Part shown: positions 1,066 through 60,141 of the stretch, piece by piece
Layout of the letters: every line of letters begins with the position of its first letter
Position numbering within the stretch: position 1 is the first letter of the stretch
Assembly (NCBI GenBank): GCA_951406725.2
Contig: OX597818.1
Span: 49,600,001-49,664,000 of the forward strand
Direction: 5' to 3'
From: Octopus vulgaris
Lineage: Eukaryota
Length of the DNA stretch: 64,000 nt
Notes under the pieces: model-generated
The model's database searches: none
Told to the model about the DNA's origin: nothing
What the model saw: the letters and a program-made list of their open reading frames with translations, nothing else
Translations under genes and position numbers: made by a program

Positions 1066-2705
1066 GTGAAACTATTATATTTATAACGATGTTTCTTTTT
1101 ATCGATATGTCGCAGATTTCAGCATATCGCTAATGCTGCTAAAACAGAGCAACAGAAACATGCTTTGCAAACCATAATGTCAGACACTTTATTACTTTAT
1201 TCTCCCATATTATTGCATCACTGTTAATATGAAGTTGACTAAACATACATTTTAACATCTGACTCCGTCCTGCCATCAATATTGGCAGCCAGTGACGTTT
1301 ATCTCCAACATCATTATTGAATAAATCCATCAGAAACTGAACAAATATTGTGATGCTTATGAACGTGTATGGCGTGTATCTGTTGCGTATTGTAAGCATG
1401 TATTGAGTTTGATCTATTATGTATAATGTATTGTGAATTTATGTATGTCTACGAATGCAACTGTGTATTTGTGGGGGACTATTTGCTGTTTGTCTGTCCA
1501 TTTATAAATGCATTGACTATTTTGCTTTCTATGTATGTTTTCATGTAATGCCTTGCTATTGTTTCTGTTTAATGGCCATAGTCACGAAATTTTTTCCTCA
1601 AAATTCTCATCCTACTCATACATTGTGGTTTTCATTCAACGAAACAACTAAAATATTGTTATATTCTCATTAAATATATACAAATGCGTGCACAAACACA
1701 CATACATATATACAAGCGCACACATACATATACACACACAAACACATCATCGCTTTAACGTCCATTTTTCATGCTTGCATGAGTCAAGTGGAGCTTATTG
1801 AAGTAGATTTTTCTATGTCAGGATGCCTTTCCTGTCCTCAATCCTCACATGTTTTGCCAAACATTTTCATGGAAGATTGGAGGGGAATGCCACCGCTTAA
1901 GACATCCATTTACGATTATTGCATATCAAAACAAGGAGACAAACGTACACACATATACGCTCGCTTGCGCATTTGAATGGCGTCAACATGTCTAGGAAAT
2001 GTTATAAATTTATCGTGCAACACATGTTTATTTCTTAAGTCGATTATGTTTCGCATAATGATGTCTAATCAAATTGAATGAACAATAGTAATTTTTATTT
2101 TATTGCATATGTTGCATATATCGTATACACTACATATCTATAAATGTGGTATGGGATATAAAAAAAAGTGCCCGTTTACTGAAACGATCGTAACATCAAT
2201 TTTAAATTTCTATTTTCCTCATTTAAATCATCATTATTATTATTATTATTATTATTATTATTATTATTATTATACACTCAGTGAGGCATATATTATTCCT
2301 ATTGGATTATAACTTGGATTTCCAGTGTTCCCCTGCACATTCAGTTAACAGAATGCTACACCAACCACGTTCCTACATGAAGTATTGACACTTGGATTAT
2401 AATTATTCTCACAATATATGTGTGCGTGCGCGCACGTGTGCGTGTGAGTATATGTGTCTATGCACACACACATGCGCGCAGGTGAGCACATAAGTGCAAA
2501 ATAGGATGCAAAAAACAGTACTTGAATTCCAAAGCTAGAGTAATACGCTTTTATTAAAGCTGCAAAATTATCTCAAAACTGTTACTCAGAGTTTCACATT
2601 CCCCATTCATTATAACTATGCGATGAATAGAAACTTGAAACTCTGAGTAACGGTTTTGTGATAATTTGGCAGTTTTGATAAAAGTATATATATATATATA
2701 TATAT

Positions 2706-3392
2706 TCTTATTCTTTTATTTGTTTCAGTCATTTGAATGTGGCCATGCTGCAGCACCGCCTTTAGTCATACAAATCGACCCCAGGACTTATTCTTTGTAA
2801 GCCTAGTACATACTCTATTGGTCTCTTTTTTGCTGAACTGCTAAGTTACGGGGATGTAAACACACCAACATCCGATGTCAAACGATGGTGGGGGGACAAA
2901 CAGACACACAAACATATATATATATATATATATAAAATACAAAATGGAACAAGAATGCAAAACATCCAGACAGTAAGGTTATACAAAAAGGTTAAGGTGA
3001 TACAAAAAAGGGACAACAAAACATCCAGATAGACGATACAAAGAAAATAAGGACGGGTCATTTGGAGTTTTCTTTCCTCAGTCGAGTTTGAGATTATCTT
3101 TGCAATTTCGGCTGGTTATACTCGAGATTGCTCCAATCTGGCCAGCCCCAAGGAAAAACTAAGCTAAGAGCATTGGATTCCTTGGAAGAAAGCAGCGAAT
3201 GTATATGAAATCAAAGATGGGAAAAAATGGAGAATGTTACACAAATACAAATAACAGGATAGAACAACAAGTGTTGTTCGACTGGTCAGCTCAAGGCTAT
3301 AGTAGAGACACTTGCCCAAGGTGCCACACAGTGGGAATGAACCCAGAACTATGTGGTTGGGAAACTAGGTTCTTAGCAGACAGCCACACCCA
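2706..3392 (-). mobile_element. tRNA-derived SINE family A, interrupted by an unrelated insert at about 2931-3280
   Basis: Matches full copies such as 4655-5060. The tail half is at 2706-2930 and the head half at 3282-3392. Confidence 0.85.
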
Positions 3393-3569
3393 CACCAATA
3401 TATATATATATATATATATTAAAATTGGGTAGTTCTCAAGTCTTAGTGATGCACACATACAGATACACAGAGACAGACAGACAGACACACATTCTCAGTT
3501 TTATATATATATAGTATGTATATACATGTATATATATCATCATCATTGTTTAACATCTGTTTTCCATGC

Positions 3570-3970
3570 TGTAATCATAACTCTAGGCACAAGGCCTGAA
3601 ATTTGGGGGGAATGGAGCTAGTCGATTAGATCAACCCCAGTACACAACTGGTACTTAATTTATTGACTCTGAAAGGATGAAAGGCAAAGTAGACTTGGCA
3701 GAATTTGAACTCAGAATGTAAAAACAGATGAAATACCTATTTCTTTACTACCCACAAGAGCCTAAACACAGAGGGGACAAACAAGGACAGATAAACAGAT
3801 TAAGCTGATTACATTGACCCTAGTGCGTAACTGGTACTTAATTTATCGACCCTGAAAGGATGAAAGGCAAAGTCGACCTCGGCGGAATTTGAACTCAGAA
3901 CATAAAGAGAGACGAAATACCACTAAGCATTTTGCCCAGCGTGCTAACATTTCTGCCAGCTCGCCACCTT
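3570..3970 (-). mobile_element. SINE family B (MetaSINE-like core), tandem-duplicated body
   Basis: Reverse complement of gagctggcagaa..gttagcac..gagttcaaattccgccgaggtcgactttgcctttcatcctttcggggtcgataaattaagtaccag; the body is repeated. Confidence 0.85.
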
Positions 3971-4654
3971 AGGTATTTTAATTAATAAATTATGTATCAT
4001 GTTATTTATTATCAAGTATCAGCTTCTTAGATTATATATCATCACATACTGTGCGCAAGTTACCTAATCTCTGTCCCACTGACTGAAAATTAGGCCCAAA
4101 ACATTAAGTAGGTTAGAATTAGATTAATTGCCATAGAAAAGCTTAATTAAATCTATCTAAATGACTTTGAAAAAAGCTAAATGACAAATCATACCAAAAA
4201 AATAGGACGTCAAACAATGACAGCTCTGGAACAGTGATCGTAATGTGGTATTCTGGGGCACGGATTCTGAGTTTTTTTAGCAAACATTCAGCCAACATTA
4301 TATGCATGATAAGAATCCTGCAAAGTAGAATTTTTTATGGTTGTTATACAGCATAAAATCTCGATCCTATGTATGTCACCCAAATAAAAGAGCTGAGAAC
4401 CAATTTCAATTCTGTAATATGGTTTTAGTTTTTGACATTTAGAGTAAAGATAAATATTTAGCAGTCTTCTAAACAGAACATGGAGTAAGCAGATTCCTTA
4501 AGAAATAATTTATGCACTATCTTTAATCATTGACAATCTGAAAATCCCTTTTAGCAATTTACAATAACATGCACTAACATTTTCAATTAAATAAAAACAG
4601 AGGAATGTTTTGAAGTGCCATTTTTTAAAAACTTCTTATTTTGCTCAAACTTAC

Positions 4655-5060
4655 TCTTTTACTCTTTTACTTGTTTCAGTCATTTGACTGTGGCCATCCT
4701 GGAGCACTGCCTTTAGTCGAGCAAATCGACCCCAGGACTTATTCTTTGTAAGCCTAGTACTTACTCTATCGGTCTCTTTTGCCGAACCGCTAAGTTACAG
4801 GGATGTAAACACACCAGCATCGGTTGTCAAGCGATGTTGGGGGGACAAACACAGACATACAAACATATACGCACACACATATATATACATATATACAATG
4901 AGCTTCTTTCAGTCTCAGTCTACCAAATCCACTCGCAAGGCTTTGGTCGGCCCGAGGCTATAGTAGAAGACACTTGCCTAAGGTGCCACATGGTGGGACT
5001 GAACCCAGAACCATGTGGTTGGTAAGCAAGCTACTTACCACACAGTCACTCCTACGCCTA
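4655..5060 (-). mobile_element. tRNA-derived SINE family A, full length
   Basis: The minus-strand head aggcgtaggagtg(a)ctgtgtggtaag..ggttcagtccc has Pol III A/B boxes; internal (TA/CA) microsatellite; (gagtaaaa)-type tail. About 20 copies occur in the window. Confidence 0.92.
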
Positions 5061-58170: not shown

Positions 58171-58309
58171 TATATATATATATATATATATATATACACC
58201 TCCCCACACACACACATATATTTTTCTCAATATACAATATCTGTAGACCGCTTCTAACACTCTATACATACATACATATATATGTATGTATATATATATA
58301 TATATATAC

Positions 58310-58700
58310 TCTCTCTTTTACTCTTTTACTTGTTTCAGTCATTTGACTGCGGCCATGCTGGAGCACCGCCTTTAATCGAGCAATTCGATCCCGGGACTTA
58401 TTCTTTTGTAAGCCCAGTACTTATTCTATCGGTCTCTTTTGCCGAACTGCTAAGTAATGGGGACATAAACACACCAGCATCGGTTGTCAAGCAATGCTAG
58501 GGGGACAAACACAGACACACATACACTCATATATATATACATATATACGACGGGCTTCTTTCAGTTTCCGTCTACCAAATCCACTCACAGGGCTTTGGTC
58601 GGCCCGAGGCTATAGTAGAAGACACTTGCCCAAGGTGTCACGCAGTGGGACTGAACCCGGAACCATGTGGTTGGTAAACAAGCTACTTACCACACAGCCA
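58310..58700 (-). mobile_element. SINE family A, CpG-rich (probably young) copy
   Basis: Near-consensus copy. Confidence 0.92.
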
Positions 58701-58874
58701 CATTTATATATATGTACAAAAATTAAAGAATGGAGTAGATAAAATCCGGGCTACTATGTTTCATAGTGAGCGGAACCTTGAAAGTAGTAATTATTCAAGC
58801 AAAGTGTATATTGCAGGTTACTCTTCAGGCCAAAGATATCTAGAAAATTTCCACTTTCCTGTTTTGTTACATAT

Positions 58875-59138
58875 CATCATCATCATCATCATCATCATCA
58901 TCGTCCTTTAACATCCGTTTTCCATGCTAGCATGGGTTGGACGGTTCGACCGGGGTCTGGGAAGCCAGGAGGCTGCTCAGGCTCCAGTTTGATTTGGCAT
59001 GGTTTTCTACAGTTGGATGCCCTTCCTAATGCCAACCACTCCATGAGTGTAGTGGGTGCTTTTTACGTGCCACCGGCACTAGTGCCAGGGGAGGCTAGCA
59101 ACGGCCACGATCGGTTGGTGCTTTTTACGTGCCACCGA
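58875..59138 (-). mobile_element. Family C retroposon
   Basis: (CAT)n tail plus family body. Confidence 0.88.
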
Positions 59139-59811
59139 CACACACACACATATATATATACATATATATATATATACACACATATATATATATACATATA
59201 TATATATATATATATATATATATATATATATATATATATATATATATATATATATATATATATATATATATATCACACAATCCATATGGATAAAGACAGA
59301 AAGCACACAGAAACCTGCTTCCTCCAAGTGATGCCACAGTAGAGATTGTAGGTTCACAGCAGAATGAGTGTGTAATATGAGATTAATTCAGTTGTAGCGG
59401 TTTCACTTTCCCCAATAATAACCTCCATCATCATCATCATCATCATCATCATCGAAAACGGACGCTAAACGATGATGATGATGATGATGATGATGATGAT
59501 GATGATGATATATATATATATATATATATGTATATATATATATATATAACAAAACAGAAAAAGTGGAGATTTTTGGTGTTATTTAATCTCTAACACATGC
59601 GTCTCATTAGCAAATAGGAGTTACAATTTTTATAATACCCAAAAATTTCCATTTTCCCGTTTTGTTATACAATAGCTCTGCAAAAAAATATTTCCATAAT
59701 TCTCAATTTTTTATATACATTTTGTCTAACATACAGCAGACCACATAAATGAATAAGATAAGCAGATGTGCTTCAAGAGGAAACAGCTGGGATTTACCTA
59801 ACTACCTATAT

Positions 59812-60141
59812 ATAATAGTTATCGCCATACTAATATGGCATTCTTATAAAAATAAGAAAAAAGCTGTCCGCTTATTAGCTCCATGAGGCCATCGCCTTAA
59901 GTTAGCTATTTGATACACAAACTGTATCCATATAACCTTCGAACAAGGGAGGTCAGTCGCTCCACACTACTTGACCGGTCAAGTAGTGTGGAGCGACTGA
60001 CCTCCCTTGTTCGAAGGTTATATGGATACAGTTTGTGTATCAAATAGCTAACTTAAGGCGATGGCCTCATGGAGCTAATAAGCGGACAGCTTTTTTCTTA
60101 TTTTTATAAGAATGCCATATTAGTATGGCGATAACTATTAT
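59812..60141. repeat. Spacer-less palindrome of 330 bp
   Basis: Centre ..ttgacc|ggtcaa.. at 59976/59977; the 165-bp arms show no mismatch on visual reading. Confidence 0.92.

What the first reader, a model, noticed from the sequence alone, without database searches (positions are those of the whole stretch)
2543..60141. Candidate system: dispersed non-coding fold-back retroelements carrying minimal hammerhead ribozymes
Seen: two intact minimal type I hammerhead motifs (16229-16272, 34447-34480), several decayed ones (8959-8996, about 16408-16450, 34705-34745, 37548-37597) and several unrelated hairpin inserts (2.6, 39.4, 48.4 and 59.6-60.1 kb), often sitting in (TA)n tracts or inside other TEs. 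Established: Penelope-like elements carry minimal hammerheads in their pseudo-LTRs, often form inverted structures, and their short stem III generally needs dimerisation for cleavage; retrozymes are non-autonomous hammerhead-bearing retroelements. Inference: a diverse, high-copy set of non-autonomous Penelope-dependent hairpin elements that could yield self-cleaving, circular or long dsRNA. In a coleoid cephalopod with extensive A-to-I editing, these would be likely ADAR substrates.
Basis: partly seen in the sequence, partly recalled or inferred. Interest (0 to 1): 0.72.

Follow-up and report, generated by a model that had tools for sequence, protein, structure and literature searches.

The report
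Penelope insertion scars with variant hammerheads
The hammerhead motifs are real, but most hairpins here are short back-to-back leftovers of known Penelope-type jumping genes, plus one clipped copy of a young 362-base ribozyme repeat that likely borrows their enzyme; the one oddity is that the youngest Penelope copies carry a core change predicted to weaken the ribozyme.

Summary
Both 'intact' hammerheads exist and beat shuffles (2 vs mean 0.1). They are not a class of self-spreading hairpins. The motifs at 16.2 and 16.4 kb are two arms of one 5'-truncated, inverted insertion of an autonomous Penelope-like element (A; 1312-aa RT/GIY-YIG ORF). The 34.4-kb motif is a solo end of a second Penelope family (B). 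The 8.9 and 37.5 kb motifs belong to real families; 34.7 kb has none. The 59.8-kb palindrome is a clipped copy of a young 362-nt tandem retrozyme (D) with a U3-A8 hammerhead; relatives of the 2.6 and 39.4 kb hairpins also carry hammerheads. A and D share a footprint: (TA)n targets, one arm with a ~60-nt tail, one without (26 of 31; 23 of 26). Family A's hammerhead has C, not the conserved A9, in 2892 of 3095 exact copies, including all young ones examined. The hairpins would bury their ribozymes (about 60 kcal/mol). No editing footprint was found. Opposite-strand hammerhead pairs, tails, U3-A8 and retrozymes are in print, and this scan has noted the same kinds elsewhere in this genome. New members of known kinds.

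The parts
16100..16331 (-). Family A Penelope-like element, inverted arm (3' terminal repeat, no tail)
   Evidence: self-alignment 16100-16580, 88%; 88% to a young copy
16229..16272 (-). Minimal type I hammerhead, canonical A9 core (minority state of family A)
   Evidence: descriptor; 203 exact copies
16348..16580 (+). Family A sense arm (3' terminal repeat)
16410..16449 (+). Family A hammerhead with C9 core (majority state) and two stem II changes private to this copy
   Evidence: 2892 exact C9 copies
16555..16629 (+). Start of the family A ORF (residues 4-28), including the ~50-nt one-sided tail after 16580
   Evidence: tblastn 84%, E 8e-8; tail 58 nt in young copies
34332..34510 (-). Family B solo 3' terminal repeat of a Penelope/Poseidon-type element, ending in (TA)n
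   Evidence: downstream of a GIY-YIG ORF in 8 of 12 loci picked by endonuclease likeness
34446..34480 (-). Minimal type I hammerhead, canonical core, extra A after A9, palindromic ACGU stem III
   Evidence: 1919 exact 33-mers
8819..9012 (-). Family C terminal repeat plus tail; sister of family A; hammerhead at 8959-8995, family core U3-A8, damaged here
   Evidence: 2130 copies; tail codes an ORF start like A's; RT/EN upstream in 1 of 30 loci
59812..59978 (-). Family D retrozyme, inverted arm (unit positions 9-175, no tail)
59975..60205 (+). Family D sense arm (unit positions 9-237, 63-nt tail); begins 8 nt after the predicted cut, so it lacks the hammerhead
2492..2689 (+). Family E old fold-back with tail; relatives carry a U4C-core hammerhead; decayed here
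   Evidence: 4 of 20 loci pass the relaxed descriptor
39345..39552 (+). Family G old fold-back with tail; longer relatives carry a U3-A8 hammerhead upstream of the part kept here
   Evidence: own motif in 2 of 12 loci
37450..37655 (+). Family F old repeat with decayed canonical hammerhead at 37549-37596
   Evidence: (2 of 15 loci pass)
59545..59808 (+). Old repeat with a short inverted arm and a ~140-nt one-sided extension; no hammerhead found; D inserted at its right end
48290..48545 (.). Old low-copy repeat with weak inverted arms; no hammerhead found
34705..34745 (-). Partial core motif without family support; likely chance

Best explanation
The hammerhead motifs and hairpins are truncated copies of several repeat families, three of them ends of protein-coding Penelope-like retrotransposons and one a young 362-nt tandem retrozyme, and each hairpin is likely a dead by-product of one insertion by Penelope RT/GIY-YIG protein. 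[quoted passage not shown] Inferred: the endonuclease nicks both strands of a TA tract, each nick primes reverse transcription at one of two sites about 60 nt apart, both cDNAs stop early at independent points and join through a few paired bases; when both stop after 150-250 nt the product is a hairpin. Inferred: D is transcribed as multimers or circles, cut by its U3-A8 hammerhead, and copied in trans, most likely by family A or a young sister with the same linker. Inferred: family A no longer needs an efficient hammerhead, since its youngest lineage fixed C at conserved position 9.
For: ORF and domains: RVT_1 E 3e-4, GIY-YIG E 3.5e-4; 116 relatives. Arm-to-ORF link. Continuous arm spacing 124-4542 bp. 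One tail per insertion: A 26 of 31, D 23 of 26. In D either arm may reach further 5' (tail arm 8, tail-less arm 15 of 23), and 18 of 26 joins overlap by 0-6 nt, which fits two independent cDNAs, not copy-back from a fixed first arm. D: 362-bp tandem spacing, 99% identity, 1844 exact 3'-end words, 1321 hammerheads, stem variants mostly keep pairing through G-U or A-U, unit folds at z -7.0, hammerhead helices cost only 1-2 kcal/mol in D; 39 of 71 arms run through the cut site, up to 2704 bp. B: including one locus with B at both ends. C9: 2892 vs 203; 36 of 36 motifs in 18 of 20 long-ORF loci are C9; C9 arms have closer neighbours (median 0.009 vs 0.026). Literature: opposite-strand hammerhead pairs 100-700 bp apart, extra base after A9 and U3-A8 (PMC4209133); inverted truncated copy, one-sided tail, linker and TA bias (PMC8557442); 350-390-bp mollusc retrozymes (PMC7229834).
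Against: Both Pfam hits are below the curated cut-offs and the whole protein gave none; no solved structure matched. D shares no detectable sequence with the 3' end of A (score 46 vs shuffles 40 +/- 6), B or B's young sister, so its driver is inferred from footprint and age only. Cleavage is untested: D 5' ends are not clearly enriched at the cut (7 vs 2.7 expected in positions 1-16, one of the 7 an alignment artefact; 3 vs 1.5 in a second set; none exactly at position 1; the strong peak is at 38-48). Rare variants were shared by all units of an array in only 14 of 77 cases, which does not favour copying of one circle. 5 of 31 A pairs and 3 of 26 D pairs break the one-tail rule. No hammerhead or ORF was found for the 48.4 and 59.6 kb families, and no ORF link for E, F or G. 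Folding did not predict the C9-G12 pair that would explain loss of activity.
Confidence: 0.8

Rival explanations
1. One reading: the hairpins are self-spreading non-autonomous elements whose transcripts self-cleave or circularise and are edited by ADAR.
For: A subset of ~510-525-bp A hairpins look alike; thousands of inverted copies would give long dsRNA if read through; D is truly non-autonomous.
Against: The search that returned them was ranked by likeness to a 511-bp hairpin; hairpin centres differ; spacing is continuous; the duplex buries the motif (59-63 kcal/mol); the D, E and G hairpins fold back at or past the hammerhead; no A>G excess in D.
Confidence: 0.07
2. One cDNA is made, snaps back on itself and is copied, giving the second arm (single priming, fold-back).
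For: The window's D copy is a perfect palindrome centred on a self-complementary 4-mer; three other D joins lie at the same 4-mer; short overlaps at joins fit snap-back.
Against: The second arm should always lie within the first; in D either arm can be the longer one (8 vs 15), so the first-primed end would have to alternate.
Confidence: 0.25
3. D arrays arise locally from solo Penelope terminal repeats by unequal crossing-over, not by copying of a ribozyme-cut RNA (the route discussed in bioRxiv 2026.07.22.740005).
For: Passage seen; many units differ slightly within arrays (63 of 77 rare variants).
Against: Arrays end at two fixed 3' sites, start at scattered 5' sites, sit back to back in TA tracts and are 99-100% alike across chromosomes; no ORF-bearing parent was seen in 45 unbiased loci.
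Confidence: 0.1
4. The C9 hammerhead of family A is active, with the following G taking the role of position 9 or a protein restoring the fold.
For: The rest of the core and both helices stayed intact in the youngest lineage; natural core variants can keep low activity (PMC3088659 passages).
Against: A9 is one of the strictly conserved core bases in that paper's consensus; minimal Penelope hammerheads are already slow (PMC4209133); hammerhead-less Naiads spread well (PMC8557442).
Confidence: 0.35

Closest known systems
EN+ Penelope-like elements with the CX2-5CxxC linker (Neptune/Nematis type; PMC8557442)
   Same: One ORF with RT and C-terminal GIY-YIG with CCHH-like residues, linker Zn-finger motif, partial tandems, inverted 5'-truncated copy, one-sided tail, (TA)n targets (families A, C).
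   Different: Tail 58 nt in A against 30-40 bp described; long ORF (1312 aa) with an Asn-rich insert; hammerhead core C9 in most copies. Clade not placed on a tree.
Penelope/Poseidon-type elements (PMC8557442)
   Same: Family B: GIY-YIG ORF, then a long 3' region, then the hammerhead-bearing repeat; one locus has the repeat at both ends; the young sister ORF lacks the linker motif.
   Different: About 1.5 kb of CA-rich 3' region; most copies are solo ends of ~230 nt.
Minimal hammerheads of metazoan PLEs (PMC4209133)
   Same: Short helix I, extra base after position 9, G10.1-C11.1, palindromic or tiny helix III, pairs on opposite strands 100-700 bp apart, U3-A8 variant.
   Different: A9C not seen in the parts read nor in searches; four core types (canonical, C9, U3-A8, U4C) occur among families of one 64-kb window.
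Metazoan non-LTR retrozymes (PMC7229834; bioRxiv 10.64898/2026.07.22.740005)
   Same: Family D: non-coding 362-nt unit in head-to-tail arrays, one type I hammerhead per unit with 6-bp helix I, 4-bp helix II and palindromic helix III, strongly self-paired.
   Different: U3-A8 core; back-to-back arms with two fixed 3' ends; no cephalopod example found in searches; expression, circles and cleavage not shown.

Membership tests
EN+ Penelope-like element (family A) | Single ORF with RT and C-terminal GIY-YIG endonuclease | tested here: met
   1312-aa ORF; RVT_1 E 3e-4 and GIY-YIG E 3.5e-4, both under Pfam cut-offs; 116 relatives
EN+ Penelope-like element (family A) | Pseudo-LTR in partial tandem, inverted truncated copy, one-sided tail | tested here: met
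   L099 structure; 26 of 31 pairs with one tail
EN+ Penelope-like element (family A) | Canonical hammerhead core in the pseudo-LTR | tested here: not met
   Motif present, but C9 in 2892 vs A9 in 203 exact copies
Neptune/Nematis clades | CX2-5CxxC linker between RT and EN | tested here: met
   C-x4-C-x2-C read in the translation; criterion from PMC8557442
Neptune/Nematis clades | RT groups with named reference elements | not tested
   The relatives found were unnamed; no reference set on hand
EN+ Penelope-like element (family B) | Repeat lies 3' of an RT/GIY-YIG ORF in sense | tested here: met
   8 of 12 loci; GIY-YIG E 0.011 in L432, weak
EN+ Penelope-like element (family C) | Repeat linked to a PLE ORF | tested here: met
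   Tail codes an ORF start 57-74% like A's; RT/EN upstream in 1 of 30 loci, E 1e-78
Non-LTR retrozyme (family D) | Non-coding 150-450-bp tandem unit with a type I hammerhead in each unit | tested here: met
   362-bp spacing; 1321 motifs; no PLE ORF joined in the loci scanned
Non-LTR retrozyme (family D) | Highly self-paired unit | tested here: met
   z -7.0, 0 of 100 shuffles
Non-LTR retrozyme (family D) | Self-cleavage | not testable with these tools
   Indirect test on 5' ends inconclusive
Non-LTR retrozyme (family D) | Expressed as linear and circular unit-length RNA | tested here: inconclusive
   Contigs of four runs only guessed to be RNA cover the unit and its head-to-tail joint; the joint also exists in DNA
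   Variable centres and spans 506-8884 bp
ADAR substrate | A-to-G excess in RNA or in retro-copies | tested here: inconclusive
   11 A>G vs 11 T>C of 87 rare changes in D; matched RNA and DNA not available

The most novel reading that the evidence does not exclude
The most active Penelope lineage of this genome has let its own hammerhead die (A9C) while small RNAs with working variant hammerheads, such as the U3-A8 retrozyme D, hijack its enzyme without sharing its sequence, and every insertion is primed from both target strands at two sites about 60 nt apart. The natural A9/C9 pair would then be a direct test of whether hammerheads serve Penelope elements or only ride on them.
Probability: 0.3. 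Interest if true: 0.62.

Novelty: new member of a known kind. Interest (0 to 1): 0.35.

Why it matters
As a system it is known biology in a new host. Its value is as test material. What hammerheads do for Penelope elements is open (PMC8557442 says their function is unclear and they may be passengers); family A offers two natural alleles of one ribozyme, the non-canonical one in the young, ORF-intact lineage. Family D gives a countable insertion footprint for the proposed but little-tested claim that animal retrozymes are moved by Penelope proteins. It also warns that strict hammerhead descriptors miss most motifs here and pick minority alleles as 'intact'.

Tried and rejected
Rfam: no hammerhead hit in the window or in the D array. 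Sequencing runs: no RNA holder listed; four runs guessed to be RNA were laid as contigs: they cover all 28 bins of the D unit and join its end to its start, cover the family A repeat but almost none of a 1-kb flank, and list no A9 row at the 20% threshold; weak hints only. Cut-site footprint in D 5' ends: inconclusive. Single-circle copying: 14 of 77, not supported. Editing footprint: none. Driver of D by sequence: none found; D and G share no clear likeness outside the motif (3 of 4 alignments within shuffle range). Two-template origin of mixed A9/C9 arms: not provable. C9-G12 pairing: not predicted. Solved structures: no match for the RT/EN half. Host gene: 105 of 126 window ORFs scanned gave only transposase and RT fragments, so whether the hairpins lie in an intron is unknown. 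Lunse et al. 2017 was not held; known only as cited in PMC6765202. Literature searches for A9C or cephalopod retrozymes found nothing on point, but most subscription journals and all supplements were unseen, and the supplements of PMC4209133 (alignments of many motifs) and PMC13282606 (repeat library) may already hold these families or the C9 variant. Look-ups of earlier scan notes by sequence for A, B and D gave no match.
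Full report
Setting. The window is G000:C5:49600001-49664000 in a 2.8-Gb assembly. At least 57% of the window matches repeats in the loci fetched; 105 ORFs scanned gave only transposase and RT fragments.

Observation. A strict type I descriptor finds 2 motifs, 16229-16272 and 34446-34480, against a mean of 0.1 in 30 shuffles. 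Allowing one core mismatch gives 8 places against a mean of 2.2, so the 'decayed' motifs had to be judged by their relatives. Rfam finds no hammerhead. Self-alignment confirms the hairpins and adds 14.2-14.5 and 43.3-43.6 kb.

Family A (16.1-16.6 kb). The two motifs are arms of one inverted repeat with a tail on the right arm; the flanks share about 10 bases that read as a target duplication. The family is large (2923 candidates, 40 scored). Longer copies place the arm downstream of a GIY-YIG ORF. A search with that domain gave 8586 candidates, many with equal scores and many as outward-facing pairs. L099 holds a 1312-aa ORF in the textbook order: inverted truncated copy, partial tandem, full ORF, terminal repeat. 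RT and GIY-YIG hits are weak but in the right order; the linker has C-x4-C-x2-C, the Neptune/Nematis mark (PMC8557442 passages). The tail is the ORF's start. Spacing of inverted hammerheads runs from 124 to 4542 bp among the first 100 listed; 26 of 31 two-armed loci have one tail.

The A9C allele. Exact 34-mers: 203 with A9, 2892 with C9, 0 in reversed controls; 3116 with any base there (pattern one base longer). All 36 motifs found in 18 of 20 long-ORF loci are C9. Among 117 arms (59 C9, 40 A9, 18 other; A9 enriched on purpose) A9 is linked to other sites at 12 columns and has more distant neighbours, so it marks the older subfamily. The window's insertion is old-type on both arms, which differ by 6.7%, one A9 and one C9; mutation, conversion or two templates cannot be told apart. 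That A9C lowers activity is inferred from A9 being in the strict core (PMC3088659 passages); no paper on it was found.

Family B (34.3-34.5 kb). 1919 exact 33-mers. In 30 unbiased loci the 3' end is fixed before (TA)n, the 5' end varies, and no true inverted partner lies within 1.5 kb. Walking upstream reached a CA-rich region and a GIY-YIG ORF 1.55 kb away. In 8 of 12 loci picked by likeness to that domain B follows in sense, in one at both ends; a young sister family with ORFs above 1000 aa exists.

Families C, F, E, G. C (8.9 kb): 2130 copies with a U3-A8 core, 15 of 20 loci pass the relaxed descriptor, tail homologous to A's ORF start. F (37.5 kb): old, 72-83% alike, canonical core. E (2.6 kb): old fold-backs with a tail and a U4C core, 4 of 20 pass. 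G (39.4 kb): longer relatives carry a U3-A8 motif of full helix size, 2 of 12. No ORF link was found for E, F or G. The 34.7-kb motif has no family; the 48.4 and 59.6 kb families show no hammerhead.

Family D (59.8-60.2 kb). The perfect 330-bp palindrome plus 63-nt tail belongs to a 99%-identical family in 362-bp tandems. The unit carries a type I hammerhead with U3-A8 core, 6-bp helix I, 4-bp helix II and a palindromic helix III; position 7 varies, and the common stem variants keep pairing. The window copy starts 8 nt past the predicted cut. In 45 loci taken in genome order from the first 163 Mb of C1 (71 arms after dropping pieces under 40 nt and one duplicated pair): 3' ends fall at unit positions about 175 or 238; 23 of 26 inverted pairs have one of each; the tail arm reaches further in 8, the other in 15; 18 of 26 joins overlap by 0-6 nt; 39 arms cross the cut site. 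Against an easy story: 5' ends peak at 38-48 (13 vs 2.2), only weakly at 1-16 (7 vs 2.7, one an artefact; 3 vs 1.5 in 19 further loci); rare variants are array-wide in 14 of 77 cases; A>G equals T>C; D resembles no Penelope end tested.

Can the hairpins act as ribozymes? Forming the hammerhead helices inside the 16-kb hairpin costs 59-63 kcal/mol on either strand, against 1-2 in D's own context. Each strand has one sense motif, and such motifs are reported to need dimers (PMC4209133; PMC6765202 passages). They would give long dsRNA if transcribed; that is untested.

Comparison. PMC4209133 (parts 1-2 of 4 read) describes minimal hammerheads, opposite-strand pairs 100-700 bp apart and U3-A8. PMC8557442 (passages) describes inverted copies, tails and TA bias. 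PMC7229834 (parts 2-3 of 6) describes 350-390-bp mussel retrozymes. bioRxiv 10.64898/2026.07.22.740005 (part 1 of 5 and passages) argues that retrozymes derive from PLEs; the word search found no 'tail' in it. PMC13282606 (passages) counts 31 recently active Penelope-like families in O. vulgaris and does not use the word ribozyme. PMC6155905 (passages) gives G12 and G8 as catalytic bases. PMC10886601 (passages) was off topic. The term twin priming is recalled from L1 work; one search found no use for PLEs in the listing. Earlier notes of this scan report the same kinds of thing on other DNA of this genome; they are not independent support, and the two-strand priming wording is taken from them.

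Verdict. Real features, known kinds, new families. Interest 0.35; the A9/C9 pair and the D footprint are the parts worth a bench test.

Noticed in passing
window 43299-43604 and 14216-14497: Large hairpins (94% and 70%) made of the end of a very abundant repeat that ends in (ATC)n and matches 49-54 of 318 fetched loci. An RTE-type origin is my recall, untested. Fold-backs are thus not limited to Penelope families.
   Followed up: partly
window 59545-59808: Old family whose inverted arm stops at a fixed point and whose other arm runs about 140 nt further, a much longer one-sided extension than the 58-63 nt of A and D.
   Followed up: partly
window 59803-59811 and 60206-60214: The D insertion is flanked by an 8-10-nt direct repeat at the TA-rich end of the 59.6-kb element, likely a target duplication.
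   Followed up: partly
L182, L204, L207 and window 59975-59978: Four D insertions join their arms at the same self-complementary 4-mer, 8 nt after the predicted cut.
   Followed up: partly
L471-L478: A young Penelope/Poseidon-type family related to B, with ORFs of 1000-1390 aa and a CA-rich 3' region of about 3 kb; my relaxed descriptor found no hammerhead in its terminal repeat.
   Followed up: partly
L481, L483, L487, L488, L489: Several ORF-linked B copies read CCGA in place of CUGA at the core (U4C), so B too has a variant allele.
   Followed up: no
L310 and L296:4500-5050: B joined directly to the tail of a family C copy, and B following the 5' part of a Penelope ORF: nested or template-switched insertions.
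   Followed up: no
L188:1481: The base closing helix II of D is T in this array but C in nearly all contigs of the four runs laid and in most loci.
   Followed up: partly
window 57666-58064, 38558-38842, 50447-51381: Mariner-type transposase fragments (HTH_48, Transposase_1) and RT fragments.
   Followed up: no
window 15591-15890: tRNA-like head (Rfam tRNA, E 0.91, below threshold) of a probable SINE just upstream of the A hairpin.
   Followed up: no
window 627-666, 18033-18667, 6222-6736, 13499-13880, 31527-32048: Degenerate TTAGGG tract, a 635-bp AGT tract, and 185-bp and 66/67-bp tandem arrays inside abundant repeats.
   Followed up: no
P0096: A record named dynein regulatory complex subunit 6-like carries about 100 residues 97% identical to family A's ORF: exonised element or annotation artefact.
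   Followed up: no
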